NCBI GenBank assembly: GCA_964402565.1
Contig: CAYOCJ010000002.1
Location: 391,340-455,339 of the forward strand
DNA from: an uncultured Gammaproteobacteria bacterium
Lineage (GTDB): Bacteria > Patescibacteriota > Patescibacteriia > UBA1558 > 2-01-FULL-52-15
Length of the DNA stretch: 64,000 bases
Direction of reading: 5' to 3'
The notes below the pieces were generated by a model that worked only from the letters and a program-made list of their open reading frames with translations, was not told the origin of the DNA and searched no databases. Of the stretch, positions 12,933 through 44,071 are shown one piece after another. Position numbers and translations under genes: made by a program. Position 1 is the first letter of the stretch; each line of letters begins with the position of its first letter.

Positions 12933-13424
12933 ATGACACTTGTTCAAAAAATAGAACAAGACCTAATCGAGAGCCAGCGAGCAAAGCAGCAATCAAAAAC
13001 TGCTGTTTTGCGTTTAAAGCAGCAATCAAAAACTGCTGTTTTGCGTTTAATGAAGAATGCTCTGAAGAATGCTGCGATAGAGAAACGGCTCGATCTTGCA
13101 GAGATGCCTGATGAGCAAGTCGTTGCCGTCATGCGAACGGAAGTGAAAAAACGCAAAGAAGCCATTGATGCATTCATGAAAGGCGGGCGTCCTGAGCTTG
13201 CGAAGAATGAGCAGGATGAACTCGCGATGATCGAGAGTTATTTGCCGGCATTCATGCCAGCGGATGAAGTGAAAAAAATAATTGATGAGGTCGTGAGTGA
13301 ACAGCAGCTGCATCCGCCTTATCAATTCGGGATGCTGATGGGCGCGGTGGTAAAAAAGATCGCCGGTCGCGCAGACGGTGCTGTGGTGAAAGAAGCTGTG
13401 CAACAATTCATAGCAGGAAGCTAG
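12933..13424 (+). CDS. yqeY: GatB/YqeY domain protein
   Basis: YqeY-like sequence (AIEKRLDLAEMPDEQVVAVMRTEVKKRKEAIDAFMKGGRPELAKNEQDELAMIESYLP); conserved rpsU-yqeY adjacency. Confidence 0.75.
   Translation: MTLVQKIEQDLIESQRAKQQSKTAVLRLKQQSKTAVLRLMKNALKNAAIEKRLDLAEMPDEQVVAVMRTEVKKRKEAIDAFMKGGRPELAKNEQDELAMIESYLPAFMPADEVKKIIDEVVSEQQLHPPYQFGMLMGAVVKKIAGRADGAVVKEAVQQFIAGS
12985..13050 (+). repeat. Perfect 33-bp tandem direct repeat (x2) inside yqeY
   Basis: agcagcaatcaaaaactgctgttttgcgtttaa occurs twice back to back, encoding KQQSKTAVLRL twice in frame. Confidence 0.85.
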
Positions 13425-13450: not shown

Positions 13451-15184
13451 ATGCTTACAAAAACAAAAAAACTAATCCTGCTCACGCTTATCGTGACCTC
13501 TGTTGCGATAGGCTTTTTTATTTTTAGAAGCACTGCGGTATTTGCGCAAGCGTCCCTCGACTTCCCCACAAGTTTCGCTGGATTCAGTTCGCAAGATTTG
13601 AAAACCACGATCGAGAATATCGTTCGCATCGTTCTTGGCTTCATCGGATTTATCTTTTTGTTGCTGCTGCTCTATGCAGGTTTTGTATGGATGACGTCAG
13701 GCGGAGACGAGAAGAAGATCACGCGGGCAAAAAAGATCATCGCAAGCTCCGTGATTGGATTATTGCTGACGCTCTCGGCGTATGCCATCGCAAGCTTCAT
13801 AGTGCAGCGCCTGACCGGAGCCGCTGAGAATGGATCTGTCGGCAGCTCAAGTACTGGACCCGGAGGTTTTGGCTATGCGCTCGGCTCTGGTGCTTTGGAA
13901 AGCCATTACCCGGGACGCAATGCCCGCGATATTCCTCGCAATACCAATATCTACATCACGTTCAAAGAAGCTATGGATGTGAAGACCATTTGCGATCCGG
14001 GTCCTGACGGCACCTACGGAACTCCTGATGATCCAAATCGCGTCAATACGGCAAGCATACAGCTCAAAGATATGAATAGCCTGGAGCCTGCTGACTCGAA
14101 CGATACAGCGAACGACGATACGCTTGAGGGAATTACCTGTCAGCCGACGGACGCATCATTGAAGACCTTCAAATTCGACCCGACTGCAAACCTTGGCACG
14201 GGAACGGGTAATGTGCCGTATAATGTGATTTTGGTTCCGCATCAGATCAAAACCGCTGACAATGAAGATGCCTTAGCGTTCGGATATAGCTGGCGCTTCA
14301 CCGTGAACTCGGTTCTGGATGAAACGCCGCCAAAGATCATAAGCGTGTATCCGAATATGGGGGACATAGTGCCTCGCAACAGTATCGTGCAGATTAACTT
14401 CTCAGAACCAGTAGATCCGACCAATGCAGCAGGTTTTTATTCTCCAACGTCAACTCCGGCCTCGCTGTATAACAGTATTACTCTTGACGATCAACCAGCT
14501 CCAAAACCAGCGAATGCTTACTACTTAGCAGGAACGTATGCATCGGCCAATCAATATCAATCTACGGAATTTATTTCGAATGAACTCTGCGGTCAGAATT
14601 CTTGCGGCGAAAAAGTGTATTGTCTGCCCGGATTAATTACTATCTATGGCGAGGTAACCAGCGCTATTACTGATATGGCAGGCAATCATCTCGATGGAGA
14701 GTTCCCGGCACCGTATACATTTCCGTCAGGTGATGGCACGGCCGGAGGTAATTTCGACTGGCGATTCCAGACCACGAATACCCTGGACTTGAAACCGCCT
14801 TTGATGCTGACGCGAAATCCTGGCAGGAATGCGACTGATGTGGATGTGTACAAGCCTATCACCATGGATTTCAATAAAAAATTGTCGGCTTCGAGCCTGA
14901 CCTCGACCAATGTCGGCTTCTATCGCACCTATCCGTATCCAGGAGGCACGGCGTGGGACGATCAGATAAACTATTGGGTTAGTAAAGACGATACAAAGAA
15001 CTTAGATACTGATCCGGAAACCGAGACGCAGGTGATCATCGGCCATGATATTTTCAAACCGCTTACTCCGTATCATCCGGGCGCAAGTTCAGAGATCCGT
15101 GACGTGAGCCAAAACTGTTATTTCCCGGCTCAATGCGATGCGCCGCCCTATGACGGAGTAGGCAGTCTTGCAGAATGTAATTAA
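13451..15184 (+). CDS. Secreted/membrane protein: signal peptide + VirB2/TrbC-like helix-loop-helix pilin module + three SbsA-type bacterial Ig-like domains
   Basis: Signal peptide (AVFA|QA), then IVRIVLGFIGFIFLLLLLYAGFVWMTSGGDEKKITRAKKIIASSVIGLLLTLSAYAIASFIVQRLTG (two hydrophobic helices joined by a basic loop, W-M at the helix-1 end and LTG at the helix-2 end as in VirB2), then Ig-like repeats (PRNTNIYITFKEAMD..., PKIISVYPNMGDIVPRNSIVQINFSEPVDP...). Confidence 0.7.
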   Translation: MLTKTKKLILLTLIVTSVAIGFFIFRSTAVFAQASLDFPTSFAGFSSQDLKTTIENIVRIVLGFIGFIFLLLLLYAGFVWMTSGGDEKKITRAKKIIASSVIGLLLTLSAYAIASFIVQRLTGAAENGSVGSSSTGPGGFGYALGSGALESHYPGRNARDIPRNTNIYITFKEAMDVKTICDPGPDGTYGTPDDPNRVNTASIQLKDMNSLEPADSNDTANDDTLEGITCQPTDASLKTFKFDPTANLGTGTGNVPYNVILVPHQIKTADNEDALAFGYSWRFTVNSVLDETPPKIISVYPNMGDIVPRNSIVQINFSEPVDPTNAAGFYSPTSTPASLYNSITLDDQPAPKPANAYYLAGTYASANQYQSTEFISNELCGQNSCGEKVYCLPGLITIYGEVTSAITDMAGNHLDGEFPAPYTFPSGDGTAGGNFDWRFQTTNTLDLKPPLMLTRNPGRNATDVDVYKPITMDFNKKLSASSLTSTNVGFYRTYPYPGGTAWDDQINYWVSKDDTKNLDTDPETETQVIIGHDIFKPLTPYHPGASSEIRDVSQNCYFPAQCDAPPYDGVGSLAECN

Positions 15185-15185
15185 T

Positions 15186-18100
15186 ATGCATTTCAGGCTT
15201 TCATCACGATTGAAAAAGATCATTCTCGGGCTAGTACTCGCTGGAGGAGTCGCTGTCTTCACGCATAGTGCTCTCGCACAAGTTTCTGTGGATCTGCCGA
15301 CCAGCTTTGCCGGATTCAGTTCGCAGGATTTGAAATTGACGATCGCGAATATCGTGCGGATCGTTCTCGGGTTCATCGGAATTCTATTCTTGTTATTAGT
15401 TCTGTATGGAGGCCTGGTATGGATGACATCTCAAGGACAGCCTGACAAGATCAATAGAGCAAAGAAAATAATCGCATCGGCAGTTATCGGTTTGCTTATC
15501 GTATTATCCGCTTATTCCATCGCAGGATTTATCGTCGGCAGTTTACAGGGAGCGGTCAGCCCGACACCGCCAGGGCCTCCTGCTGTTTGCGGTGATGGCG
15601 CAGTTACCGGCGGTGAGCAATGTGATGATGGCAATACGCTGAATGGAGATGGCTGCTCTGCATTCTGTGCCATTGAAGGCGTTATCCCTGGATGCACATT
15701 GCCGACAGTACCTGGTAGCGTGAAAGTATGTAATGTCACCAATCCTGCCTATCGATCACAGGTCGCTGTTATCAATGGATATAACTTCGGAGCAAGCGTT
15801 GGAACGGTCACTATCAACGGCGTTGCGGTAACGCCGGTCGCTTGCGGACCATCATCTGGCTGGAGCGGCGGTTCTATCGTGGTAGATATTCCTGCAACGA
15901 TACCGCTGGGCACTATCGGAGCGCAGAACGTGGTCGTTACCCGGTCAGATTCTGCTACATGTGCTGCCGGGAATTGCGGTGTCACGAACGTCAGCATTGG
16001 TTCAAGCCCGTTCATCAGGTGTATGACGCCGAATTTCGGACCGTCAAACGGTACCGGCGACATCAAGGTTGAAGGCGGAAACTTCGGCACCGTACAAGGT
16101 AATATTGAAATGGAAGGAGCCGCGCCTGCGCCCGCGAACCGATTCCTCGTAGGAGCTGCGAATCTCATCGGACCGTGGACTAATGAAGAAGTGCACTTCA
16201 GAGCGCCGGCAGCCGGGGCCCCTCAACAAGCAGTGTCAGGCGATGTAGTGCTGGTCACTTCTACAGCAGCGCGAAGCAATGGCATGCCGTTCACCGTGAC
16301 CTGTTCTGTGGCAAGCAGCGCTTCATCAGAGTGTGCGACTAACTGTTGCACGCCTTCATTGCAATGCCGTCCTATGCTTGAATGTGTTGCAGCTGCTGCA
16401 GGAGGGCCGTTCATCTCGAGCATTAATCCGAATAATGGAGAAGAAGGGAATTATGTCACGATCAATGGAAGCGGCTTTGGAGCCGCCAGGGGAACGAGCG
16501 TTTTGCATTTTTTGTGGCCTGACGCAACCAATACAGATTATCCAAATAGTTTCCCATCGAACCCTGCTTGTACAGCAAACTGGTCAGACACCCAGATCAT
16601 CATGGAGGTTCCGCCAGTGGGCGGGGTAGGAGATGGCCCTGATTCACCGCCGAATGGCATCGTATGGGTGACCACCGGCGTGGGAGATTCAAATCAAGTT
16701 CCATTTACGATCAATGATATCGTGCGCCCGGGCCTCTGCAAAGTTTCACCGACATCTGGCTTCCCGAATCTGCCCCCGCCTTTCCATCTGAACGGAAATA
16801 ATATGTCTGGTGCTGCTCAGAAGATCTTTTTCGGCGTACCTCCGGGCATTGATGCGACCAGCCCGAACTTTATCGATGCGCAGAATGCGGATGGCATGAT
16901 CCCGAATCTGATAGCAGGCACGACGACCGTTGCATTTTCTGTGGGTGTCGGCGCTGCAACTCAGTATTCGAACCCATTGGACTTCGCAGTGCTCGGTGTC
17001 GCTGCAGGAGATCCTATCATCAATTCGGTCACTCCACTGAGCGGACCATCAGGAACCTATGTGACCATACAAGGTGCGAATTTTGGAACGACGATCGGGA
17101 AAGTGTTCCTGAGCCCCATCGGACATCCAGGATGCGGCCCCGGTTCTCCGTCGCCTACGGGCAATGATTGTCTTGCAGATATTGCATTTCCTGCGATGTG
17201 CAGCACTGATTTCTGGCGTGACGACCAGATCATTGTGAAAGTTCCGAAGACCGGACCTCCAGGCAATACGCCAGCGGGGAATTATTTCTTCATCGTTCAG
17301 CGGGCGAGCACGCCGGTGAAAACATCTCAAATGGTTTCGATACCTAATACGAATGGTATCTTTGTAAAAAATGACGCGTTGCCTGTCACCCCAGGGTTGT
17401 GCCGCATCAATCCCGTCGGAGGTCCTGCAGGAACGCCGGTAGATTATTTTGGTGAAAATTTCGGAGTCACCCCTGGTCCGCAAAGCTCAATTTGGTTCGA
17501 TAAGGATGCCGGCGTGACGACAGGTTTCACCTGGACCGATACGCAAGTCCTTGGCGCCGTCGTACCGGGCAGCGCTATTACGGGCACGACTACCGTTCAG
17601 CACAATGACCGTAATCGCAGCAATCCGATCCCGTTCTTTGTCGGGTCATGTACTTCAAACCTACAATGCGGCAGCGCTACGTGTTGCAGCGGCGTGTGTC
17701 GCGTGGGTGCTTGCAATGCAACGACGCATGATGAAAACAACTGGCAGTTCACGTCAGGACAATATGATTTCGATCTTGAACGCAGACAGCAATGCACCGA
17801 GGGAATGCAGACACCGACGCCATTCCCGTATGATCATGTGAATATGAACTGGGATGGATTCTTTGACCCGGTCATCCTGCCGGTCTATGACGAGAATGAT
17901 CCAATAACCAATGCGCCTCTGGACGTTGCGATCGCCGCAGAATTTAATAGGCCTCTAAATTATGCGACCATCGAAGGTCCGTTGCCGGCATTTACTGACA
18001 ATGGTGTCCGCATTTTCAGATGCAATGCTGCAAGCCCGACGTTTAATGGCACCGGATGTACTGAAGTTACCGGTGATGGAGATTTTGCACCGCTCGGCAG

Positions 18101-21100
18101 CGTTGGCTTCAAGTGGACATTGCATAGTGGCCTGAAATTGAATCCGGAGACGTGGTATGAAGTTCGTCTTGATGACGGGTCCGGAACGCCGACAAGCCGC
18201 ATACAGGCAGTCGACGGCAGCTTCTATAAAGGAAGCCAATTCCTCGGCGATGATACTTCTTTGCAGGAGCCTGATGACTTTAAGTGGCATTTCAGAACAC
18301 GGACCGTGGTACAGGGAAGCTGCGAGATCAATGCGGTCTCGCTCAATCCGGCGACGTTGACCGTGCCGGTCGGCGGCATAGGCGGGCCGATGGTCGCCGT
18401 CCCGACCAGCGCTCAGTGTTATGTGTGCGGCGGCGATTATCTGTATGACTGGGATCCAAATCCTATCGGCGCAGCTCCATATGCAACCTATAATCCCGTC
18501 AATCCGCCTTTTTCCTATCAGACTAATTTTTCAGGTTTGAATATAACGCCTGCACCGGTAGATATAACGGCGACATTGCGCGGGAGCAGCAATCCATCAG
18601 GTATTCCGATTACGAGCAATACCGCAGCGCTGAGTGTCGCCTTTATACCGCCGTATGTGACGAGCCATTCTCCTGATTCAAGCTGTGAAGCGGTGTGCAG
18701 GAACGTAGCGCCCTTTGCGACATTCAATATGAATGTCCGCTCGTCAACGATCACGACTGCCAATATACAGATACGACAATGTAATGCAGCGGATCCGCTG
18801 TGTACGACATATACAGGCGGGCCAGTGCCGATCACGCTCGTCCCATTACCAGCTGCACCAGATACCAATCGTGTCGACATCACGCCGACCGGCGGTTTGC
18901 TTCCAGCAACAAAATACCGCGTTATATTGACTAACGGCATTCAGAATTCACAGGGCCAGGGTCTTACATTATTGAACTATCCTTCAGGCGCGCCGACATC
19001 GTATTCATGGACTTTCCAGACTTCATTAGCGATTTGCGAAGCTGATGGTCTCAATGTGACGCCGGTCACTGCAACCATACCATCGCTTGGCGGCACGCAA
19101 GATTATATTGCGCATCCGACCGCTACGCTGAATTGCGGATCAGGCCCTGTGCCAGTTGGCATTGATGCAAATCGATACAACTATGGCTGGTACTCAAATA
19201 ACTTCACCGTAGCAACGATGATGTCGAGCACGTTGAACCAGGGCACTATGCAGGGAGTTAGTGCAGTTTTGGGTATACCGCCCGGAATAACGCAAGCGCA
19301 TGTAGATATGACGAATAAGGCTGGCAATCCAGCTGTCAATCTTTCAGCTGAAGGCGAAGTGGTTGTAAAAGATTCCAGAAAGCCGATAAATTTCATCGGC
19401 CATAGGCCTGATGATGCGCCGCATTCACCGCCGGAAAACGCTTCAGCTGCATGTGCGGTGCAGCCACCCGGAACGGCCGATCCGCTGCAATGCGCGAATC
19501 AATGCAGGAACGTACAGGTCAGTGCATTCTTCAGCACTCCCATTGATCCGAATTCATTTGCATCAGGACCTCCTTCAGGACTTGTTGCGCGCTATACGTT
19601 CGATGATGGAACCGGCAAAGATGTCGTCGGCGGCAATACTGCTGTTCTTGCAGCTGCACCGAGCGACCCGGCTGCTGTGTCAGGCGCACAATGCGTACTC
19701 AATAGATGTATGGACCTTGACCTCGGAGCTCCGCCGTTCAGCGCAAGTTCTGATAACATGACGGTGACTAATTTCAGCGGACTGCCAACCAATGAAATCA
19801 GCATTTCGGCTTGGGTAAGCGCAAGGACATTCACCGGCGTGGGCCAGAGAATTCTTGGCCATGATTGGGCGACTACCAATACTCCTGGGTGTACAGCTGG
19901 TCAGGCAAACGTTGGGGGTAACCCAGCGAACCCGCCATGCGTCTATAATCATGGATGGCTCTTATATGCGTATGCTCCGGGCGATTTCTATTTCGGAGTT
20001 TACGGTTCGCCGTGGAACGATCAGCATGTTGCTCGCTTTACAGCACCGACCGCATCTCCAAATACGTTGTATCATCTGGTAGGCACCTATGATGGATCGA
20101 TCGTGAAACTGTATGTGAATGGCGTGGCAGCTCCAGATGCAAATGGCTGGAGCCCGTCAACGCCGTCACCGATCGTACTTGATACCACAGGCGATGTAGT
20201 GTTCGGCTCTTCATTCGATGGCGCTCTTGATGATGTTCAGATCTATAATCGCGCCTTGTCACCGGTCGAGGTTAGCCAAGTACGCTTGATGGCCACTGGC
20301 GCTGCAGGCGCATCGGCCAATTTTAATGTGACTGACATGGCCACTGGTGCTGTCGTACCTGGAACGATCTCGGTCCATAATTACCAAGACCCTGCCTCGG
20401 GTGTTTGTACGATAAATACAGCAGTCGTTTGTAATCCCTCTCTCGCATGTCCGGCAGGAGCAGGTGAATGCAATTATACGCGGGGACGTGTCGACTTTAC
20501 CCCGGCGCTTGCATCTACCGCTGCATCTACTGCAGGGCTGGTTTCGAAGTATAGTTTCGACGCAGGGACTGCTCAAGATGAAGTTGGTGCGAATAATGGC
20601 ACGCTGAACGGAGGAGTAATCGCAACAGCGCCGAATGCTTCAATTCCGTACCTGCAAGGAGGCATGAGCCTTGATGGCGTCGATGATAATATTTCATTCC
20701 CCGCAGGGACAAACTATGACTATCCTAATTTTACGGTTTCATTCTGGGCCAAGGCAAATACGGTGGCATTGAAGCATGTCACCACAATGATCGGCAAGGG
20801 AGATTGGAATGATCCTGCGAATCACAATTGGTACCTAGGGTTTAAAGGCCAAGACATAGCCCCGCGAGATGCAACCAGTGTTTCATTCGTCTATGGTGTG
20901 CCCTGGGATAGCGGAGCATCATTAGCAATGTCCAGCTTTGATGCAACGCAATGGCATCACTATGCCGGCGTAGCTACTCCGACAAACGAGTATCTCTATA
21001 TAGACGGCACATTGCGCGCATCGATTGCGGCCGGCCACGCAAGCGTTAGCAATGGCCAGCCGGGTACGATCGGACACACAAGCTATATACCAAATCTGCC

Positions 21101-26837: not shown

Positions 26838-26859
26838 AGTTTGATCGTGTACGGAGCAA

Positions 26860-29800
26860 ATGTCTCGAGTGAACATGAAAAGGCATTTTACCTATAGCAA
26901 ACAGAAGACAAAGGCGCATGAACTCGGTGCGCTTTTGGCATTATTGATATTCGCAGCTGGTTTTTTTTCCTATGTCCGTGTTCAACACATCAAGATACGA
27001 GATCTTGGCAAAGCACAGCCGGTCTATGCACAGGCTGCTCCGAATAATATTACATTTGTCCAGCAAAATGCGACCGGGACATCAGGCACTATTGCGCCAA
27101 ATGTTATACTGACCGCGCCGGTCACCGCAGGCAGCTTGCTGGTGCTTTCAGTAAACATAGTCGGTGATATCACGCATTCGATCAATAGCGTTACTGATAC
27201 GCAAGGGAATACCTGGGTACAGGCTATCGCGAAACATGATCATAATGATGCAGTATTCGTCGCAAGTCAGGAGCTATGGTATGCAGCCAATGCCAGAGCC
27301 GGGGCAACGACCATCACAGCAAATCTAAATGCGACATTAGGAGCGACCAATGCACGGCTCTACGCGCATGAATACCAGGGTGTTGCAACCTTGAATCCGC
27401 TCGATCAAACATCGTGGGCCATTGGCTTTGATCCGCCGCCATCTGCAAATGTGATATCTCCGTCGCGTACAACCTTTTTCCCGAACGAACTTATTTTTGC
27501 AGGTTCAGAAACGTGGGGTACACCGAACCCAGGTCCTGGATTCACCACGCGCGGCACCTTGAATTTGGACTATACGGAAGATAAGAATGTGAGCACAGTC
27601 GGCAGCAATAACGCGATTGTTCAGGTTGCTTCATGTGGAGGCAATTGCAGCTGGATGATACAGATGGCAACCTTCAGGGCATCTGCGCAGCCGAATCCAG
27701 TGCGTTTCTATAAGATGGACGAAGGATCAGGTTCCACCGTGCTCGATTCGTCAGTGTTCAATGCTCCGGGCACCAGTTACGGTTCGCCGTTGCCGACCTA
27801 TATCACTGGAGTCGGTCCATCCGGCACTGCTCTATATTTTAACAATGCCTCACAGTGGATCGAGAGCGATTGGCCTCCATCGCCTTCGCTTGATATTAGA
27901 AATGATTTTACTATTACCGCCTGGGTCAATTTTTCTTCAGTGGTGAACACGTATCCGCGTATTTTCCAAAAAGGAAGGCAAATAGCAAGCCCGACTGCAT
28001 TTTCATTAGGCATCAATACTCCCGGTGGAGTGTTGCGTCCTGAAGTTCGTGCACGCATCGGAGGCACCGAGTACTCTTCAGTGGACCCCTCGAATATGAG
28101 CATCAATACCTGGCATCATATTGCCGGCGTTCGCAATGGCACCAGTTTGAAAATCTTAGTTGATGGCGTTTTGAAAAATACCGTTGCCATACCAGCGGGC
28201 ACCATCGACCTGAATAGCGGCCAGACCGCATACTTGGGCGGCGGTCCGGTCGATGGCAGAATGACCGATGGCGGCATGGATGAGGTGCATGTATCAGCCC
28301 GCGCATTAAGCGATGCAGAGGTGCTTGCTGAATATCAAAGTTATGATAATCAGCCGCCTTCTCCCATTGTAAATTTGAGCCCCGCAGATGCGGCGACCGG
28401 CGTTTCTATCAATCCGACGTTGACCGCAACAACTGCATCAGACGCCACCCCTCCGATACAATATAATTTTGAATTATTCACGACGCCTGGCTGCAGCGGC
28501 GCCTTCACGCAGGCACGAGGCTACGCTGCTTCGACGAGCTGGATCCCGTCAACGCTCACCATGGGGACTACCTACTACTGGCACTATCGTGCGCGGGATT
28601 CAGCTGCATCGCCGAATGCGAGCGGATTCAGCGCGTGCACCTCATTCACCGTCGTTTCTGATACTAATCCGCCGACAGGAGTGGGGAATGTTTCTCCAGC
28701 CGATGCATCCGCAGGTATTTCTATAAACCCGACGCTTGTTGCCGCAACAGCAAGTGATGCTACGACGCCGGTACTGTATAATTTTGAACTGTGGTCCGGA
28801 GCTGGATGTACCGGTACGCTGCTTCAGTCAGTTGTGAATTATGCCCCGACAAATTGGAGCCCCACGACGCTTGCCTACGGCACTACGTACTACTGGAGAA
28901 ATCGAGCTCGTGACTCTGTAACACCGACGCCAAATCAAAGCGCGTACGGGCCGTGCTGGGCATTTACAACCTCATTGGTAGGCCCGGTAGCCTATTGGCC
29001 TTTCAATGGCAATGCGCAAGATGCAACAGGTAATGGGTATAATGGTACGTTGCAAAATGGACCAGGGTATGTCGCAGGGCGCGTGAATCAGGCTATTGGA
29101 ATGAATGGCATCAGTCAGCGCGTCGATATGGCGAACCCCGCCAGCGGGTTAACAGATATTCCTGCGAAGACCATCATAGCCTGGATCAATATGTCCTCAG
29201 GCTCAGGCAATACCTATAAAGATATTCTGGTGAAAGGCGATGCAGGCTGCGGCTGGTGGTTATCGGTCATGAACAGCAGCTTTGTACATTGGGGTCAATG
29301 CTTCTCTTCTGGCACATATGGCTCATGGGGGTCCCCGGCAGGATCAATTACGGCCAACCAATGGTATCAGGTAGCGGTGACCTATGATAATTCTAGCGCA
29401 GCGAATATTCCAACGTTCTATATTAATGGATCTCCGACTGCTTTGACCACGATCGGCAGTCCGATCGGCACGGTGAGCAGCGATGCACCATATTTGGTTT
29501 CAGCAGGCGGAGAGATACCAAATAACAATGAAAATTTTGGCGGCACTATTGATGAAGTGCGTCTTTATAATCGGGTACTGTCCGCTGCAGAGATTTCCAG
29601 CATTTATGCAGCTGACGCTGCCGCTGTGTGCGGAAATAATCTAAAAGAAACTGGCGAAACATGTGACGGTGCTGATCTTGCAGGCGCATCATGCACGACG
29701 CTTGGTTATTTCGGCGGCACCTTATCCTGCAACCCCACATGTACAGGATATGTCACTTCTTCCTGCACGAATTGCGGCAATAATACTATCCAGGCCGGTG

Positions 29801-31245
29801 AAACATGTGACGGCACGAATCTCAATGGCCAAACCTGCATTAGCCAGGGATTTGCCGGCGGAGGCACGTTAGCGTGTAATGCGTCATGTACTGCGTTCAA
29901 TACCGGTGCCTGTATCGCACAAACCTGCGGCAACAATCTTCGTGAAGGAAGTGAAACATGCGACGGAACTGATCTGGCCGGCCAATCCTGTACCACGGTG
30001 CCTGGGGGTTATATCGGCGGCACGCTTTCTTGCCAGCCAAGTTGTGCTGCATTCAATACAGCGAGCTGTACGCCGCCGCCGGTCACGACCGTACCCGATC
30101 AATCAGCTCTTTCCACTTCTGATCTCAGGCCGGTAGATGCTGGAGGTAATTCAATTGCGGGATCATGGGAACGGGACGGCGCTAATGTAGTCGCGATCAA
30201 AGTGTGGGCTCCTGCGGGACTTTCTCGCAGCTTCGAAGCAGTCTATACCAGCCCGACGATCAATACTATCTTTTATACGTATAATAACGCCGCGAATTGG
30301 GCATGCTCGCATACGTATACGCCGGGCTGGAATCAAATAAGTTGCCCGACACATTGTTCGAATAATCGAACCATAGCATGTACATTGGGTAACAATACCC
30401 CGTGCGGCGCTGGTCGATGCACTTCAGATTGCGACCCACTCGAGCCATCGACGACCTGGCGATCGCCGTTCTCCTATACGGGCAATGCGGCGTATCCGCT
30501 GTGCAGAACGAGCTATCCCAATTTTGTCGGCAGTTCGGCGAAGTGGATCTGGGGCGATAGCTGCAGTCAGAATGTGGTCTATTGCAGGCTTGAGTTCGGT
30601 ATTGATCTTGGCGGAGGATCGCCCTATCAGCCTGGCGCGTATTGTGGCGATGGTATCGCGCAAACATCTGCATCGAGTCCGCCAGGACCAGAGGAGTGTG
30701 ATAATGGGAGTAACAATGGAGCATGTCCGAAAACATGCAGTTCACAGTGTCTGAGGAATGACTGCACATGTACCGGCCCTCTCTGTAGCGGATGTTTTAT
30801 CACAGGTACGAAAGTATTAACACCGTCCGGCCCTCGCGATATCAATGACCTTAATGTTGGCGATCCGGTTGTATCGTATGATGAGGCGACAAAGCAAAAG
30901 GCTATTGCGTATGTCGAGTTGCCCCGGTCTTACTCGCGGGACCATTACTATGTGTTAAATGGTACTATTCGCGTCACTAAGGAGCATAGATTTGCTGTGG
31001 TAGATGCAGAAGGAACGATCACCTGGAAACCAGTCATGGATCTTTCTATTGGAGACAGGTTCGTGCTTGATACAGGGAAGACCATATCTCTTGCTTCGAA
31101 AGTGCTGCATACCCCGGCGCAATCAATCCAGGTCTTTAATCCCGCACTTTCATATCCGCATACCTACTATATCTGGGATGGCGCTGAATATATTCTTGTT
31201 CATAATGCAAAGTGCACAACTCCACGTTGTGGCGGAGGGCCATGA
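26860..31245 (+). CDS. Large (1461 aa) surface protein: TM anchor + LamG + 2x FN3-like + LamG + 4x cysteine-rich repeats + C-terminal Hint (Hedgehog/intein-like) domain
   Basis: N-terminal TM helix. LamG (VRFYKMDEGSGSTVLD...MDEVHVSARALSDAEV; VAYWPFNGNAQDATGNGYNGTLQNG...IDEVRLYNRVLSAAEI). Two FN3-like repeats (NLSPADAATGVSINPTL...YYWHYRARD). CGNN..ETCDG repeats. Hint domain from CFITGTKVLTPSGP through TKEHRF to ILVHNA. Confidence 0.85.
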   Translation: MSRVNMKRHFTYSKQKTKAHELGALLALLIFAAGFFSYVRVQHIKIRDLGKAQPVYAQAAPNNITFVQQNATGTSGTIAPNVILTAPVTAGSLLVLSVNIVGDITHSINSVTDTQGNTWVQAIAKHDHNDAVFVASQELWYAANARAGATTITANLNATLGATNARLYAHEYQGVATLNPLDQTSWAIGFDPPPSANVISPSRTTFFPNELIFAGSETWGTPNPGPGFTTRGTLNLDYTEDKNVSTVGSNNAIVQVASCGGNCSWMIQMATFRASAQPNPVRFYKMDEGSGSTVLDSSVFNAPGTSYGSPLPTYITGVGPSGTALYFNNASQWIESDWPPSPSLDIRNDFTITAWVNFSSVVNTYPRIFQKGRQIASPTAFSLGINTPGGVLRPEVRARIGGTEYSSVDPSNMSINTWHHIAGVRNGTSLKILVDGVLKNTVAIPAGTIDLNSGQTAYLGGGPVDGRMTDGGMDEVHVSARALSDAEVLAEYQSYDNQPPSPIVNLSPADAATGVSINPTLTATTASDATPPIQYNFELFTTPGCSGAFTQARGYAASTSWIPSTLTMGTTYYWHYRARDSAASPNASGFSACTSFTVVSDTNPPTGVGNVSPADASAGISINPTLVAATASDATTPVLYNFELWSGAGCTGTLLQSVVNYAPTNWSPTTLAYGTTYYWRNRARDSVTPTPNQSAYGPCWAFTTSLVGPVAYWPFNGNAQDATGNGYNGTLQNGPGYVAGRVNQAIGMNGISQRVDMANPASGLTDIPAKTIIAWINMSSGSGNTYKDILVKGDAGCGWWLSVMNSSFVHWGQCFSSGTYGSWGSPAGSITANQWYQVAVTYDNSSAANIPTFYINGSPTALTTIGSPIGTVSSDAPYLVSAGGEIPNNNENFGGTIDEVRLYNRVLSAAEISSIYAADAAAVCGNNLKETGETCDGADLAGASCTTLGYFGGTLSCNPTCTGYVTSSCTNCGNNTIQAGETCDGTNLNGQTCISQGFAGGGTLACNASCTAFNTGACIAQTCGNNLREGSETCDGTDLAGQSCTTVPGGYIGGTLSCQPSCAAFNTASCTPPPVTTVPDQSALSTSDLRPVDAGGNSIAGSWERDGANVVAIKVWAPAGLSRSFEAVYTSPTINTIFYTYNNAANWACSHTYTPGWNQISCPTHCSNNRTIACTLGNNTPCGAGRCTSDCDPLEPSTTWRSPFSYTGNAAYPLCRTSYPNFVGSSAKWIWGDSCSQNVVYCRLEFGIDLGGGSPYQPGAYCGDGIAQTSASSPPGPEECDNGSNNGACPKTCSSQCLRNDCTCTGPLCSGCFITGTKVLTPSGPRDINDLNVGDPVVSYDEATKQKAIAYVELPRSYSRDHYYVLNGTIRVTKEHRFAVVDAEGTITWKPVMDLSIGDRFVLDTGKTISLASKVLHTPAQSIQVFNPALSYPHTYYIWDGAEYILVHNAKCTTPRCGGGP

Positions 31246-31326
31246 AGCAATGAGTCGTGTTGCTTTGTGCTGTTTTTTAGTGCATAATTAAGTATGAAAT
31301 ACTCCTAGTCATAATATCGGGCAACT

Positions 31327-32223
31327 ATGTTTGAAGACATAAAAAAGAATGATGAGAATGTGACCGCTGGCAACCCTTCAGCAGTTGAAGATATGTTTGG
31401 CAAAGTTGACCCAACCCCAGATATAAAGAGCGCGGTGCAGAGCGGTAAATTAACTCCGGTAGCTTCATCAATGGCAGCTCCTCAACCGCCGATGCCGCAG
31501 GCGCCGATGGGTACCAAGATCGGACCTCCGAATCCATTGACCAATCTTTCACAGCTCGATCAATGGAGCAAAAAACCTGCTCGCCGCAGCATGAGAATGA
31601 TTTTGATCGTTGTTGCAGCTTTGATCGTCGTCGGCGCTGCTATTGCCTACTTCTTTTTTATGACGCCGACAGAGGGTTCGAATGCAACTGCTAAAAATAC
31701 TACAGCGAATACCAATGCCACAACGAACACCGATACTACCGCCAACGCACAGCCAACACCTCCTCCGACTGCGAATGAAAACGGTAATCAGGCTCCAAGC
31801 ATACCATCCAATGCCCTCATTGACTCTGATGGCGACGGGCTGACAGATGTAGAAGAAGCTGTCGCTGGCACTGATCCTCATCTAGCTGACACTGATAATG
31901 ACGGTTTGAATGATCGCGATGAACTCTATGTACACAAAACAAACCCATTGTTAGCTGATAGCGATAACGACGGCCTCTCTGACCGCGACGAGATCTTTAC
32001 CTATAAGACAAATCCTATGAACCCGGACACCGATGGCGATACCTATCAGGATGGGGTTGAGGTGCAAAATGGGTATAATCCGAATGGCCCCGGAAAACTT
32101 CCTCCGACAGAAACTCCACCGAACGCACCTATAGATCCAGCCCCAACGCCCGCACCTGCTCCCACACCTTCTCCAGCTCCTACACCTACGCCCGCACCTG
32201 CTCCGGCTCAATATACATACTAG
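31327..32223 (+). CDS. Type II membrane protein with thrombospondin-type-3-like calcium-binding repeats and a Pro-rich tail
   Basis: Pro/Gln-rich N-segment, TM helix (ILIVVAALIVVGAAIAYFFF), T/N-rich linker, DSDGDGLTDVEE / DTDNDGLNDRDE / DSDNDGLSDRDE / DTDGDTYQDGVE repeats, then a PAPTPAPAPTPSPAPTPTP tail. Confidence 0.7.
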   Translation: MFEDIKKNDENVTAGNPSAVEDMFGKVDPTPDIKSAVQSGKLTPVASSMAAPQPPMPQAPMGTKIGPPNPLTNLSQLDQWSKKPARRSMRMILIVVAALIVVGAAIAYFFFMTPTEGSNATAKNTTANTNATTNTDTTANAQPTPPPTANENGNQAPSIPSNALIDSDGDGLTDVEEAVAGTDPHLADTDNDGLNDRDELYVHKTNPLLADSDNDGLSDRDEIFTYKTNPMNPDTDGDTYQDGVEVQNGYNPNGPGKLPPTETPPNAPIDPAPTPAPAPTPSPAPTPTPAPAPAQYTY

Positions 32224-32249
32224 TGCTAAAATAATTAATCCCTATTCGC

Positions 32250-33557
32250 ATGCCAGACGAGCAACAGCCATTAACAGCCGAACAGCAACCTCAAGCTCCC
32301 GAGGCTTCGATGCCGCAGGCATCTGCGCCCTCTGGTTCAATTTATACCATGCCGGATAAGTTCATGATGGGAGGCGGGCAGCCGCGTTTTTCAACTGGCG
32401 CAGCACCCGCAGGCTCTTCAGGCGGCGGCGGTTCAGGCAAACGGATGGTGATCATCATTGCTATACTGGCCTTATTTTTAGGCGGCATGACAGCCGGAGC
32501 TTACTTTTATATCAATAGCGGAGGAGACTTCTTTGGTTTGCTTTCAACAAATGAGCCTGTAGCGCCAGCAGTTCCGAACCCGCCGCCAGCCACCAATCAG
32601 CCAGTTGCGAATACCAATACAACACCTGAGAAACCGCAAGATGATCAATCAAAACTTGCTCGCGATGTGCAGCGTTCGAAGGATTTGGTCGTTCTTGCGA
32701 AAGCCCTCCAGGATTATTTTGCAAAATATAATGCATTTCCTCAGATCTTAGACTCGATTCCGAAAGATATGCTGGCAGAGCTGCCAAAGGATCCCTTGTC
32801 AGACAAGGCCTATGAGTATACGCCGCTGGATAATCGTGCTTCATACGGCATCGGCATTGTTATCGAGAAAGAGTTAACTTACAACGGCAAGACCTATCAG
32901 TCTGGTCCTGTTGTTCTGCATTCAGAGGGCTATCAGACAGCAACGTCTACACCGCCAATTACGGATCAACCAGTACCGCCGACCCCTGCCCCTGTTGATG
33001 TGAGCAATCTCGATTCAGATTCAGATGGTCTGACAGCCGCAGAAGAAAGTTTATTCGGCACGTCACCTTCGAACCCTGATTCAGACTCTGACGGGTACCG
33101 AGACAATGTGGAAATTAAGAATTTTTACAGTCCGGTGGAAACAGCTGCGGTGAAATTAGACCAGGCCGGCCTCGTGAAATTGTATACGAACGATGTTCAA
33201 AAGTTCAGTTTCTATTATCCGAGTTCCTGGGTCGTGAATGCGCCTGATGCGGACGGAGCTGAAACTCTCGTCACGACAGGGACTGGCGAAAATTTCAGCG
33301 TCTCGGTGAAGGAGAATGCGGACAATAAGACTTCCTGGGAATGGTATACGCAAAATATCAGCCATGACTATAACCCAAACAGCGTGTCCATCGTGCAGAT
33401 CAGCGGACATGAAGCGATCAAAACATTGGACGGTCTGCAGGCATATCTGGCTGTTGGCGGGAAAGTATATCTCATCACGTATAATCTGAATACTGAGTCA
33501 GTGATCCGATACCCATCCATCTTTGCGATGATGCTGGATCATTTCACGCTTCATTAA
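32250..33557 (+). CDS. Type II membrane protein with pseudopilin-like (GspG/type IV pilin-like) motif and TSP3-like repeats
   Basis: Pro/Ala-rich N-segment, TM helix (MVIIIAILALFLGGMTAGAYFYI), LAKALQDYFAKYNAFPQ...LPKDPLSDKAYEY (resembles GspG ALEGALDMYKLDNSRYPT...LPQDPWGSDYQ), then DSDSDGLTAAEE / DSDSDGYRDNVE repeats. Confidence 0.6.
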   Translation: MPDEQQPLTAEQQPQAPEASMPQASAPSGSIYTMPDKFMMGGGQPRFSTGAAPAGSSGGGGSGKRMVIIIAILALFLGGMTAGAYFYINSGGDFFGLLSTNEPVAPAVPNPPPATNQPVANTNTTPEKPQDDQSKLARDVQRSKDLVVLAKALQDYFAKYNAFPQILDSIPKDMLAELPKDPLSDKAYEYTPLDNRASYGIGIVIEKELTYNGKTYQSGPVVLHSEGYQTATSTPPITDQPVPPTPAPVDVSNLDSDSDGLTAAEESLFGTSPSNPDSDSDGYRDNVEIKNFYSPVETAAVKLDQAGLVKLYTNDVQKFSFYYPSSWVVNAPDADGAETLVTTGTGENFSVSVKENADNKTSWEWYTQNISHDYNPNSVSIVQISGHEAIKTLDGLQAYLAVGGKVYLITYNLNTESVIRYPSIFAMMLDHFTLH

Positions 33558-43603: not shown

Positions 43604-44071
43604 GTGTGCTTCAAAAAAGAACAGCCAACTATGGCTGTTTATTTGTTTGCTCTGGTGCGGTATACTTATTGGCGTATGACAGGTTCGTTCTTACGACGAT
43701 GGGCGCTGGGATCTATCGCTTCAGGCATCGTATTTTTGGCAGGCGGAGGAGTGTCGTTTGACACCTACTATGCTGCCATTATGATCGCTTTGATATTGGG
43801 CGCTGCAAATGCCGCCATGCCGTATATTATCAGCATGATGACCTTCATGAGCACGGTTCTGACTCTCGGACTCGCAACGCTCATTGCGAATGCATTGCTG
43901 CTTAACGTACTTGCAACCGCGGGGCTCGGGATTCATTTTGAATCATTCGACCGGATGTTGCTCATAGCGATCATGATCTCAACGATAGCCTGGTTTTCAA
44001 CTATGGCTATGGATAGGCCATTACCAAGTAATAAAAAACCGTATGAGGACGTATCTCATTTTAATCGATAG
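43604..44071 (+). CDS. Hypothetical polytopic membrane protein
   Basis: 3-4 hydrophobic helices; start may be the ATG about 27 nt downstream (MAVYLF). Confidence 0.4.
   Translation: MCFKKEQPTMAVYLFALVRYTYWRMTGSFLRRWALGSIASGIVFLAGGGVSFDTYYAAIMIALILGAANAAMPYIISMMTFMSTVLTLGLATLIANALLLNVLATAGLGIHFESFDRMLLIAIMISTIAWFSTMAMDRPLPSNKKPYEDVSHFNR

What the first reader, a model, noticed from the sequence alone, without database searches (positions are those of the whole stretch)
13451..33557. A ~20 kb same-strand locus of five tandem giant or repeat-rich cell-surface proteins, nearly a third of the window
Five consecutive plus-strand ORFs are separated by 1, 22, 81 and 26 nt. None has a cytoplasmic-enzyme signature and all start with a signal peptide or TM helix. 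Their lengths are 577, 3889, 1461, 298 and 435 aa. They are built from adhesion-type modules: Ig-like, TIG-like, LamG, PKD, FN3, cysteine-rich CGDG..CDDGN repeats, thrombospondin-type-3 calcium loops, a pilin-like hairpin and a Hint autoprocessing domain. In a small-genome CPR-like organism this is an extraordinary investment. It is the best candidate in the window for a host- or surface-attachment apparatus. The specific combination of a VirB2-like module, a giant adhesin, a Hint-terminated adhesin and pseudopilin/TSP3 proteins is not a described system as far as I know.
Basis: partly seen in the sequence, partly recalled or inferred. Interest (0 to 1): 0.85.

Follow-up and report, generated by a model that had tools for sequence, protein, structure and literature searches.

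The report
Conserved pilin-anchored giant surface-protein cassette
Five adjacent genes of an ultra-small (Patescibacteria/CPR) bacterium encode cell-surface proteins, two of them held in the membrane by a conjugative-pilin-type helical hairpin, and the core of this gene set sits at the same chromosomal spot in at least 80 related species yet did not turn up as a described system in the literature I searched.

Summary
Five same-strand genes (13451-33557) encode 577, 3883, 1461, 298 and 435 aa exported or membrane proteins, with no enzyme signature.

P1 and P2 both begin with a signal peptide plus a VirB2/TrbC-type two-helix hairpin (Pfam T4SS_pilin, above threshold). This is followed by Ig-like, TIG, LamG, PKD and Cys-rich ectodomains. 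P3 is a LamG protein ending in a bacterial intein-like (BIL/Hint) domain. P4 and P5 are single-pass proteins with calcium-binding TSP3 loops; P5 adds a pseudopilin-like head and a PsbP-fold domain.

The new result is conservation. The core P1-P2-P4-P5 lies between yqeY and ybeY-ftsA-ftsZ in the 80 species-representative genomes inspected (Komeili-, Uhr-, Falkow-, Magasanik-, Kerfeldbacteria and others). P3 is a lineage-specific add-on. The P1 and P2 hairpins evolve in concert. No T4SS genes lie nearby.

Most likely this is a vertically inherited, membrane-anchored surface fibril/adhesion cassette with a conserved stalk and variable lectin-type tips. Its function is inferred, not shown. Rivals are adhesins displayed on a T4SS pilus, or an envelope/division scaffold. 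I found no published description of the pilin-adhesin fusion or of the cassette.

The parts
13451..15184 (+). P1 (577 aa): signal peptide, VirB2-like hairpin, Gly-rich linker, then three to four Ig-like (Big_5) domains
   Evidence: ORF. Pfam T4SS_pilin 36.6 bits (cut-off 26.6) and Big_5 61.1 bits. AF2 model pLDDT 84 shows helices 50-81 and 87-125 followed by beta-sandwich domains. Foldseek hits are Ig arrays of LdtMt2 and of S-layer proteins SbsC and Sap. More than 90 homologue clusters share this architecture.
13592..13816 (+). VirB2/TrbC-type two-helix hairpin of P1 (aa 48-122), preceded by the signal peptide at 13451-13549
   Evidence: The module is 50-60% identical to stand-alone 105-160 aa pilins that end exactly after helix 2.
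15186..26837 (+). P2 (3883 aa from ATG 15186): signal peptide, VirB2-like hairpin, and a giant ectodomain
   Evidence: NCBI calls 3883 aa. Pfam hits: T4SS_pilin 30.9 bits, DUF4215, TIG, Big_5, Laminin_G_3 x2, PKD. 164 Cys residues, concentrated in aa 2700-3883.
15327..15542 (+). VirB2-like hairpin of P2 (aa 48-119), a paralogue of the P1 hairpin
   Evidence: 76% amino-acid identity to the P1 module. 218-nt direct repeat at 71% DNA identity.
16383..19025 (+). Conserved proximal stalk of P2 (TIG and Big_5 domains, aa ~400-1280)
   Evidence: Aligned in about 97% (aa 400-800) and about 50-60% (aa 1100-1300) of 66 orthologous giants. TIG and Big_5 Pfam hits.
19683..22580 (+). Lineage-specific middle of P2: two LamG (concanavalin-like lectin) domains, a He_PIG-like Ig domain and a PKD domain
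   Evidence: Pfam hits. Aligned in fewer than 10% of orthologues in other lineages, but shared with the close orthologue P0136.
22983..24185 (+). Conserved distal region of P2 (aa ~2600-3000) containing a type-IV-pilin-like head motif (RDxxRxxDL...LPxDPxN)
   Evidence: Aligned in about 65-74% of orthologues. The motif is found in 24 of 64 giants under a strict pattern. No HMM or PDB sequence hit, so the fold assignment rests on analogy with P5 only.
24186..26834 (+). Cys-rich variable C-terminal tail of P2
   Evidence: Up to 13 Cys per 100 aa. No Pfam hit. Mostly lineage-specific.
26860..31245 (+). P3 (1461 aa), an accessory protein: N-terminal TM anchor, two LamG domains, three Cys-rich repeats, a beta domain, and a C-terminal BIL/Hint domain
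   Evidence: An orthologue was seen only in L009. The beta domain is 35% identical to the C-terminal domain of the P2 orthologue P0136.
30793..31206 (+). Bacterial intein-like (Hint) domain of P3, Cys1312 to Asn1449, followed by only 12 residues
   Evidence: PDB 2LWY, E 1.4e-7, full-length match. Motifs CFITGT, TKEH and VHN, with +1 Ala. Pfam PT-HINT 25.0 bits and Hint_2 24.0 bits are just below their cut-offs.
31241..31269 (+). Terminator-like hairpin plus T-run in the 81-nt gap after P3 (weak evidence)
   Evidence: Terminator-like sites in the region as a whole are not above shuffled expectation.
31327..32223 (+). P4 (298 aa): conserved cytoplasmic tail, TM helix (aa ~88-112), three TSP3 calcium loops, and a Pro/Ala/Thr-rich tail
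   Evidence: Pfam TSP3_bac 82.8 bits. DxDxDG occurs three times. TM helix. Orthologues sit directly after the giant gene in other genomes.
32250..33557 (+). P5 (435 aa): cytoplasmic tail with the IYTMPDKF motif, TM helix (63-89), pilin-like head (129-228), two TSP3 loops (253-295), and a PsbP/Mog1-fold domain (304-435)

Best explanation
The locus is a vertically inherited cell-surface cassette of Patescibacteria.

P1 and P2 are exported by Sec, and their signal peptides are cut (AxA/AQ site). A VirB2/TrbC-type helical hairpin keeps them in the cytoplasmic membrane: mature N-terminus outside, basic loop inside, C-terminus outside. Everything after the hairpin therefore projects from the cell.
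- P1 forms a short stalk of three to four Ig-like domains.
- P2 forms a very long fibril. Its base (TIG/Ig) and an internal pilin-like head domain are conserved. Its distal modules (LamG lectin, PKD, Cys-rich) are lineage-specific and most likely bind glycans or other surface structures of a partner or host cell.

P4 and P5 are N-in/C-out single-pass proteins. Their ectodomains (Ca2+-binding TSP3 loops, plus a pilin-like head and a PsbP-fold domain in P5) probably act as membrane-proximal partners or scaffolds of the fibrils. Their conserved cytoplasmic motifs link the assembly to an unknown intracellular partner.

P3 is a lineage-specific extra lectin protein. Its C-terminal bacterial intein-like domain is predicted to cut itself off at Cys1312.

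Shown here: gene structure, domain and fold content, topology-relevant features, conservation, synteny, and concerted evolution of the two hairpins.
Inferred: export, surface display, interactions among the four core proteins, ligand binding, self-cleavage, and the biological role in attachment.
For: Architecture:
- No enzyme family hit any of the five proteins.
- The hairpin equals a bona fide stand-alone Patescibacteria VirB2-like pilin. Fused proteins continue with a Gly/Pro linker exactly where the small pilins end.
- 35 of the best 150 relatives of the module are single-N-terminal-module proteins of 487-6217 aa.

Conservation and synteny:
- A genome scan found at least 577 relatives of the module, of which the best 80 are full-length P1 orthologues.
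- 61 of 70 loci with enough downstream sequence have a pilin-anchored ORF of at least 900 aa directly after P1. Complete giants are 907-3460 aa, and 24 are followed by a TSP3 protein.
- The same flanks, SPase-HisRS-(S21)-YqeY upstream and YbeY-FtsA-FtsZ-NrdR downstream, recur in every locus where they are visible.

Conserved stalk with variable tips.

Coupling between P1 and P2: the two hairpins are 58.6% identical within a genome but only 46-47% identical between genomes, whichever pairing is compared.

Context from the literature:
- T4SS_pilin-domain proteins are among the most highly expressed unknown genes of cultured Paceibacterales on their archaeal hosts (PMC10936435).
- VirB2-like pilins and lectin-domain surface proteins are essential for epibiotic growth of Southlakia (PMC10633639).
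Against: - There are no expression, localisation or binding data for this locus or any orthologue.
- The core is strictly conserved and sits next to ftsA-ftsZ. That pattern is more typical of a housekeeping envelope component than of a fast-evolving host-specific adhesin.
- Interaction among P1, P2, P4 and P5 rests only on co-location and co-inheritance.
- The pilin-like head inside P2 has no HMM or structural test here.
- Whether the hairpin stays in the membrane or is extracted into a fibre cannot be decided from sequence.
Confidence: 0.55

Rival explanations
1. The hairpins are real pilins. The Patescibacteria T4SS (VirB4-driven) extracts P1 and P2 from the membrane and co-polymerises them with small VirB2-like pilins into a conjugative-type pilus. 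The fused ectodomains are then displayed on the outside or tip of the fibre, giving an adhesin-decorated T4SS pilus in a monoderm.
For: - The module scores above the T4SS_pilin threshold. It also hits the Mycoplasma ICE pilin-like conjugal transfer family NF045849, though below its cut-off.
- It is 50-60% identical to stand-alone small pilins.
- A few loci carry small pilin ORFs between P1 and P2 (L062, L064, L069, L089).
- Most Patescibacteria have a T4SS, and its pilin arrays are essential in Southlakia (PMC12102498, PMC10633639).
- In F-type pili the pilin C-terminus faces outward and tolerates fusions (my own knowledge, not tested here), so the topology is compatible.
- Concerted evolution of the two hairpins would fit co-assembly.
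Against: - No VirB4, VirB6, VirB3 or coupling-protein gene lies within the 64-kb window or in the 10-kb flanks of the relatives whose gene calls were inspected. The 80 scanned loci were not screened for T4SS genes.
- In class ABY1 the T4SS is reported to sit near comF, recG and radA instead.
- Ectodomains of 450 and 3750 aa on every subunit would be sterically hard to fit in a homopolymer.
- Polyproteins of 2-17 hairpins in one chain suggest membrane-embedded arrays rather than a classical pilus.
Confidence: 0.2
2. The cassette is a housekeeping envelope scaffold, such as an S-layer-like coat, a wall spacer or a division-associated surface structure. It is needed for cell shape or division of these wall-reduced ultra-small cells, not primarily for host contact.
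For: - It holds a fixed position immediately upstream of ybeY-ftsA-ftsZ across classes.
- The P1 ectodomain is conserved over its full length at 28-47% identity, with 22 invariant columns.
- P1's structural neighbours include S-layer proteins SbsC, Sap and the N. maritimus S-layer.
- P4 and P5 keep conserved cytoplasmic motifs.
- PsbP-fold neighbours of P5 include the envelope-biogenesis proteins LpqN and DcrB.
Against: - The distal LamG, PKD and Cys-rich modules vary between lineages, as expected for ligand recognition.
- The accessory lectin protein P3 comes and goes.
- No known divisome or S-layer family was detected by HMM.
- Adjacency to ftsAZ may simply reflect frozen synteny in small genomes.
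Confidence: 0.2
3. P3 is a polymorphic-toxin or contact-dependent antagonism protein of the PT-HINT type, and the locus is a toxin-delivery system.
For: Weak Pfam PT-HINT match (25.0 bits). A second PDB hit is a 1368-aa 'intein C-terminal splicing domain-containing protein' (8W20, E 0.007).
Against: - Only 12 residues follow the HN motif, so there is no toxin domain.
- No immunity-like gene follows; P4 is a conserved TSP3 protein.
- P3 is absent from almost all orthologous cassettes.
Confidence: 0.03

Closest known systems
Patescibacteria VirB2-like T4SS pilins and pilin arrays (Pfam PF18895; Quinonero-Coronel et al. 2025, PMC12102498; Wang et al. 2023, PMC10633639)
   Same: Same signal peptide plus two-helix hairpin, scoring above the Pfam threshold. 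The module is 50-60% identical to stand-alone pilins. There are two adjacent pilin-module genes, which is formally a two-gene 'array'.
   Different: - The hairpin here is only the first ~120 aa of 577-aa and 3883-aa proteins.
- The genes are not in or near a T4SS cluster but between yqeY and ybeY-ftsA-ftsZ.
- The published surveys treat VirB2 homologues as small proteins and state that no adhesins were detected.
Giant repeat adhesins of other bacteria (T1SS RTX adhesins SiiE, LapA and MpIBP; LPXTG giants such as Ebh and the Mobiluncus adhesin, PMC10619420)
   Same: A long stalk of Ig-like or TIG repeats, with lectin-type ligand-binding modules towards the distal part and calcium-binding elements in the system. 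The stalk is conserved and the tips are variable.
   Different: - Anchoring is by an N-terminal membrane hairpin.
- No LPXTG motif and no RTX or T1SS-type repeats.
- The host cell is a monoderm CPR bacterium.
- The cassette has dedicated TSP3/PsbP-fold partner proteins.
Bacterial intein-like (BIL) domains of hypervariable surface proteins (solved example PDB 2LWY; family as defined by Amitai et al. 2003, from my own knowledge)
   Same: Cys-1, TxxH, terminal His-Asn, and no +1 nucleophile. It sits in a secreted, variable surface protein.
   Different: It lies at the extreme C-terminus with a 12-residue tail, so the expected outcome is removal of the domain (or a reactive C-terminal thioester) rather than splicing. 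Activity is untested.
Type IV pilin / T2SS major pseudopilin (GspG/EpsG, PilA) head domains
   Different: - No class III (prepilin) leader and no Glu5.
- The domain is embedded in a bitopic protein (P5) or deep inside a giant protein (P2).
- No HMM match.
Myxococcus TSP3-repeat surface proteins (CglD gliding adhesin; MtsC and MtsD cell-cohesion proteins)
   Same: Thrombospondin type-3 calcium loops in an extracytoplasmic protein involved in surface or cell-cell contact. NCBIfam gives weak hits to CglD (41.7 bits) and MtsD.
   Different: The scores are far below the family cut-offs. Only the repeats are shared, and the rest of the architecture differs.
Giant genes of other ultra-small or predatory bacteria (Omnitrophota, bioRxiv 10.1101/2023.11.21.568195; Vampirococcus, cited therein)
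   Same: A very large surface protein in a reduced-genome, host-dependent bacterium, with conserved neighbouring genes.
   Different: Omnitrophota giants are preceded by a T2SS/T4P-like secretion locus. Here there is no such machinery, and the anchor is a VirB2-like hairpin.

Membership tests
VirB2/TrbC-type T4SS pilin (Pfam PF18895 T4SS_pilin) | Profile match above the curated threshold | tested here: met
   P1 scores 36.6 bits and P2 30.9 bits against a cut-off of 26.6. TrbC PF04956 is below its cut-off (19.4 vs 27.9).
VirB2/TrbC-type T4SS pilin (Pfam PF18895 T4SS_pilin) | Cleavable signal peptide followed by two hydrophobic helices joined by a short basic loop | tested here: met
   Hydrophobic segments at 5-32, 52-85 and 95-119 in P1 and the same pattern in P2. 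AF2 helices 50-81 and 87-125 have pLDDT 79-95. The loop is GGDEKKITRAKK.
VirB2/TrbC-type T4SS pilin (Pfam PF18895 T4SS_pilin) | Small protein consisting essentially of the hairpin | tested here: not met
   P1 is 577 aa and P2 is 3883 aa. Stand-alone relatives are 105-160 aa.
VirB2/TrbC-type T4SS pilin (Pfam PF18895 T4SS_pilin) | Encoded in a T4SS gene cluster (virB4, virB6, virB3 and others nearby) | tested here: not met
   No T4SS family among the annotated genes of the 64-kb window, nor in the gene calls of the relatives inspected. The rest of the genome could not be examined.
VirB2/TrbC-type T4SS pilin (Pfam PF18895 T4SS_pilin) | Polymerises into an extracellular pilus | not testable with these tools
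   Needs microscopy or biochemistry.
Bacterial intein-like (BIL) / Hint domain | N-terminal Cys/Ser nucleophile, block-B TxxH, and C-terminal His-Asn | tested here: met
   Cys1312 (GCFITGT), T1373-K-E-H, and H1448-N1449. The same motifs occur in the L009 orthologue.
Bacterial intein-like (BIL) / Hint domain | Sequence similarity to established family members | tested here: inconclusive
   PDB 2LWY 'bacterial intein-like domain' matches at E 1.4e-7 over residues 4-138 of 138. However, Pfam PT-HINT (25.0 vs 27.7) and Hint_2 (24.0 vs 28.4) are just below their cut-offs.
Canonical intein (protein splicing) | Nucleophilic +1 residue (Cys/Ser/Thr) after the terminal Asn, and a C-extein | tested here: not met
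   The +1 residue is Ala, and only 12 residues follow.
PT-HINT polymorphic toxin | Toxin domain downstream of the Hint domain | tested here: not met
   The protein ends 12 residues after HN.
Type IV pilin / T2SS pseudopilin | Class III signal peptide (prepilin leader, hydrophobic alpha1-N with Glu5) | tested here: not met
   No G/FTLIE-type motif in P2, P5 or any other real ORF of the window.
Type IV pilin / T2SS pseudopilin | Alpha/beta head-domain fold | tested here: met
Type IV pilin / T2SS pseudopilin | Profile or sequence match | tested here: not met
   No Pfam, NCBIfam or PDB sequence hit for either region.
Bacterial TSP3 repeat proteins (PF18884) | Repeated DxDxDG calcium loops and a profile match above threshold | tested here: met
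   P4 scores 82.8 bits against a cut-off of 25, with three loops. P5 has two loops with an invariant DxDxDGL..EE in its family alignment, but its Pfam score is sub-threshold.
PsbP/Mog1-fold domain | Fold similarity | tested here: met
LPXTG/sortase-anchored or RTX/T1SS giant adhesins | C-terminal LPXTG sorting signal, or RTX repeats with a T1SS signal | tested here: not met
   No LPxT[GAS] motif in any of the five proteins. No RTX or HemolysinCabind hit.

The most novel reading that the evidence does not exclude
In a large part of the Patescibacteria, the conjugative-pilin hairpin has been turned into a general N-terminal anchoring and assembly module for surface proteins up to more than 6000 aa. 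The conserved yqeY-[P1-P2-P4-P5]-ybeY-ftsAZ cassette would then be the core attachment organelle of these lineages. P1 and P2 would co-assemble through their co-evolving hairpins, possibly with small pilins and with the help of the essential but functionally unexplained T4SS. They would form a fibre that carries lectin tips to the host surface. The BIL domain of accessory P3 would generate a reactive C-terminal thioester that could covalently couple P3 to another molecule.
Probability: 0.2. Interest if true: 0.85.

Novelty: new variant of a known kind. Interest (0 to 1): 0.68.

Why it matters
Patescibacteria make up a large share of bacterial diversity, and all cultivated members live attached to other microbes. 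Outside Saccharibacteria type IV pili, how they hold on to their hosts is largely unknown. Why their T4SS and its VirB2-like 'pilins' are essential is also an open question (PMC10633639, PMC12857230).

Three results bear on this. Pilin-type hairpins are fused to Ig/lectin ectodomains of up to thousands of residues. Two such proteins plus two calcium-binding partners form a cassette frozen at one chromosomal site in at least 80 species. The two hairpins co-evolve.

Together these give a concrete candidate structure and concrete experiments. They also mean that surveys counting PF18895 hits as 'small pilins' mix at least three architectures: single pilins, tandem poly-pilins and pilin-anchored giants. 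If the cassette instead proves to be an envelope or division scaffold, it would still be a lineage-defining cell-biological feature of these ultra-small cells.

Tried and rejected
- **P3 C-terminus.** A homologue search with its 392 C-terminal residues gave only 6 weak Hint-only hits and did not recover itself. The spread of BIL-terminated accessories therefore remains unknown.
- **Source record.** I tried to identify the NCBI record. The contig is 512,989 bp, but no accession or name was returned.
- **Alternative anchoring or diversification signals.** No prepilin leaders, no LPXTG, no DGR-type or other long DNA repeats in the locus apart from the pilin-module pair, and no tRNAs in the window that might mark an island.
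- **Promoter and terminator scan.** Counts were at or below shuffled expectation. Only the hairpin after P3 is positionally suggestive.
- **P1 fold search.** Foldseek on the whole P1 model was dominated by Ig arrays, so it could not test the hairpin against VirB2 or TraA structures.
- **Rejected readings.** An assembly chimera, a mobile or foreign island (GC 0.49-0.54 against 0.45-0.51 in the flanks; housekeeping synteny conserved across classes), and a polymorphic-toxin locus (no toxin domain).

Full report
**1. Observation**

The five plus-strand ORFs are present at 13451-15184, 15168/15186-26837, 26860-31245, 31327-32223 and 32250-33557. The quoted gaps of 1, 22, 81 and 26 nt hold if P2 starts at ATG 15186. 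That start gives 3883 aa, which is also the NCBI gene call. The quoted 3889 aa belongs to an upstream TTG that overlaps P1.

The locus covers 20.1 kb, or 31% of the window. GC is slightly higher (0.49-0.54) than in the flanks (0.45-0.51), with no sharp break. An independent single-run assembly is 100% identical over 12,164 nt covering P1 and most of P2. The only DNA repeat in the locus is the pair of pilin modules, 218 nt at 71% identity. A chimeric assembly is therefore unlikely.

**2. What the proteins are**

*P1 and P2.* Both carry a T4SS_pilin (PF18895) module above the curated threshold directly after a signal peptide.
- P1 then has Big_5 Ig-like domains.
- P2 has a DUF4215 Cys-rich repeat, TIG, Big_5, two Laminin_G_3 domains, a He_PIG-like domain and PKD. 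After that come about 1400 residues with no Pfam hit and up to 13 Cys per 100 aa.

The AF2 model of P1 (pLDDT 84) shows a signal helix, a confident helical hairpin (50-81 and 87-125), a disordered Gly-rich linker and three to four beta-sandwich domains. Its structural neighbours are Ig arrays of LdtMt2, S-layer proteins and cadherins, with no enzyme among them.

*P3.* It has an N-terminal TM helix, two LamG domains, three Cys-rich repeats of about 50 aa, a beta domain and a C-terminal Hint domain.
- The Hint domain matches the solved bacterial intein-like domain 2LWY over its full length (E 1.4e-7).
- It has Cys1312, TKEH and His-Asn1449. The +1 residue is Ala and only 12 residues follow.

*P4.* It has three TSP3 calcium loops (82.8 bits) after a TM helix at about aa 88-112.

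*P5.* The AF2 model (pLDDT 80) shows these parts:
- A TM helix at 63-89.
- Two TSP3 loops.

There is no prepilin leader anywhere in the window and no LPXTG motif in the five proteins. None of the five matched an enzyme family.

**3. Surroundings**

The flanks are housekeeping genes:
- Upstream: parAB, relA/spoT, topA, dprA, pth, engA, an LCP-family gene, signal peptidase I, hisS, rpsU and yqeY.
- Downstream: ybeY, ftsA, ftsZ, nrdR, a release factor, comEC, EF-G/EF-Tu, the ribosomal protein operon and secY.

No T4SS or type IV pilus machinery is in the window. The pilin module occurs only in P1 and P2.

**4. Related sequences**

*P1 family.* P1 has more than 90 homologue clusters, nearly all with the architecture T4SS_pilin+Big_5 and about 500-900 aa. 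Those that carry a name come from Komeili-, Falkow-, Uhr- and Parcubacteria MAGs.

*Genome scan.* A scan of species-representative genomes found at least 577 relatives of the module. The best 80 are all full-length P1 orthologues. My ORF and phmmer survey of those 80 loci shows:
- SPase-HisRS-(S21)-YqeY lies upstream in most loci.
- In 61 of 70 loci with enough downstream sequence, a second pilin-anchored ORF of at least 900 aa directly follows P1. Complete giants are 907-3460 aa.
- 24 complete giants are followed by a TSP3 protein, and then by YbeY and FtsA where the sequence reaches that far.

*Downstream end.* Gene calls on other contigs confirm it: [accessory]-TSP3 protein-P5 homologue-YbeY-FtsA-FtsZ-NrdR. 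This is seen in a Komeilibacteria MAG, a complete 1.31-Mb Kerfeldbacteria chromosome and an 823-kb contig. The 823-kb contig has a minimal form with a single 1890-aa pilin-anchored protein.

The core cassette is therefore P1-P2-P4-P5.

*P3.* The Hint-terminated P3 was found only in the window and one close relative. Its beta domain is homologous to the C-terminal domain of a P2 orthologue (35% identity, E 2e-23). This indicates module exchange between the P2 tail and a separate accessory gene.

**5. Anatomy of conservation**

Mapping 66 orthologous giants onto P2 gives this picture:
- Residues 400-800 (TIG stalk) align in about 97%.
- Residues 1000-1300 align in about 45-60%.
- Residues 2600-3000 align in about 45-75%.
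- The LamG/PKD block (1400-2600) and the Cys-rich tail (beyond 3100) align in fewer than 10-20%. They are shared only with close relatives such as P0136.

The conserved 2600-3000 region contains an RDxxRxxDL...LPxDPxN motif, which resembles the pilin-like head of P5. The motif is found in 24 of 64 giants under a strict pattern.

**6. The hairpin module**

Searching 1.84 billion representatives with P1 residues 1-125 gave 28,424 hits at E<=1e-3 and 6,591 at E<=1e-10. The best 150 fall into three architectures:
- Stand-alone pilins of 105-200 aa.
- Polyproteins with 2-17 tandem hairpins.
- Proteins with one N-terminal hairpin and a long extension. There are 35 of at least 487 aa, and 14 above 2000 aa, up to 6217 aa.

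Stand-alone pilins are 50-60% identical to the P1 module. They end exactly where the fused proteins continue with a Gly/Pro linker.

Within a genome, the P1 and P2 hairpins are 58.6% identical on average (76% in the window). Between genomes, P1-P1, P2-P2 and P1-P2 identities are all 46-47%. The two hairpins therefore do not form separate orthologous lineages but evolve in concert. The cause could be gene conversion or a shared partner.

**7. Mechanism**

The best-supported model is a Sec-exported, hairpin-anchored surface assembly.
- The signal peptide is cleaved, the basic loop stays cytoplasmic, and the C-terminal ectodomain is outside.
- P1 gives a short Ig stalk.
- P2 gives a very long fibril with a conserved base and lineage-specific lectin-type tips.
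- P4 and P5 are calcium-binding, membrane-proximal partners. Their conserved cytoplasmic motifs (MFDDL... and (E/D)D(I/M)F in P4; (I/V)(H/Y)(T/V)MPxKF in P5) point to an intracellular partner.
- P3 is an accessory lectin protein that probably removes its own C-terminal BIL domain.

Export, interactions, ligand binding and the role in attachment are inferences.

Literature context:
- PF18895 proteins are among the most expressed unknown genes of cultured Paceibacterales (PMC10936435).
- VirB2-like pilins and lectin-domain surface proteins are essential in Southlakia (PMC10633639).

**8. Rivals**

(a) T4SS-assembled pilus displaying the ectodomains. This is attractive because the module is a bona fide VirB2-like pilin and a few cassettes contain small pilins. 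Against it, no T4SS genes were seen in the window or in the relatives' inspected gene calls, and the ABY1 T4SS is reported to lie elsewhere.

(b) Envelope or division scaffold. This is supported by the frozen position next to ftsAZ, the conserved P1 ectodomain, the S-layer-like structural neighbours and the cytoplasmic motifs. The variable lectin tips and the accessory P3 argue against it.

(c) Polymorphic toxin. This is rejected because nothing follows the Hint domain.

**9. Comparison with what is known, and novelty**

The hairpin passes the sequence and topology tests for the T4SS_pilin family. It fails the 'small protein' and 'in a T4SS cluster' criteria. P1 and P2 are best described as pilin-anchored surface proteins rather than pilins.

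Published surveys describe small VirB2-like pilins and arrays of 2-11 pilin genes in Patescibacteria, and state that no adhesins were detected (PMC12102498). The 2025 T4SS review adds nothing on fusions (PMC12857230). Full-text searches found no description of pilin-adhesin fusions or of this cassette.

I rate it a new variant of known kinds (VirB2-like pilins and giant adhesins). The cassette appears to be conserved but undescribed.

**10. Verdict**

Its function remains inferred. Interest is 0.68.

Noticed in passing
Proteins P0126, P0176, P0177, P0196 and others returned (not in the window): Many relatives of the pilin module are single polypeptides made of 2-17 tandem VirB2-like hairpins, for example 606 aa with 7 modules and 1775 aa with 17. 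I have not seen this poly-pilin architecture described. It suggests the hairpins pack side by side.
   Followed up: partly
window 12984-13049 (inside yqeY, 12933-13424): In-frame tandem duplication of 11 residues (KQQSKTAVLRL twice) near the N-terminus of the YqeY-like protein.
   Followed up: no
window 287-1926 and the whole window: parA and parB lie at the window start, and cumulative GC skew rises monotonically across all 64 kb. The cassette is about 12 kb from parAB and is probably origin-proximal, like the T4SS loci reported near dnaA in other Patescibacteria.
   Followed up: no
window 39619-41971: ComEC is encoded as two overlapping ORFs, a Competence domain (39619-41070) and a metallo-beta-lactamase domain (41045-41971). 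It is also two genes in relatives L007 and L009, so this is probably a genuine split rather than a frameshift error.
   Followed up: partly
window 38609-39568: A 319-aa ORF with no Pfam hit is conserved in the same position, between the release factor and comEC, in L007 (337 aa) and L009 (322 aa).
   Followed up: no
window 31327-31590 (P4 tail) and 32250-32435 (P5 tail); loci: The cytoplasmic N-terminal tails of the two bitopic proteins keep short motifs across classes. P4 has MFDDLK... plus (E/D)D(I/M)F. P5 has (I/V)(H/Y)(T/V)MPxKF. This implies an unknown cytoplasmic partner. The genes sit just upstream of ybeY-ftsA-ftsZ.
   Followed up: partly
window 31241-31269: A 12-bp-stem hairpin followed by a T-run lies immediately after the P3 stop codon, in the only long (81 nt) intergenic gap of the locus. 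It may separate a P1-P3 transcript from a P4-P5-ybeY transcript.
   Followed up: no
L062, L064, L069, L089 (between the P1 and P2 orthologues); L091:3814-9486: Some genomes carry small stand-alone pilin ORFs (125-171 aa) inside the cassette. One genome has a minimal cassette with a single 1890-aa pilin-anchored protein instead of the P1 and P2 pair.
   Followed up: partly
window 43604-44071: A 155-aa ORF matches the 4-TMS holin family Phage_holin_4_2 (46.9 bits), sitting among housekeeping genes.
   Followed up: no
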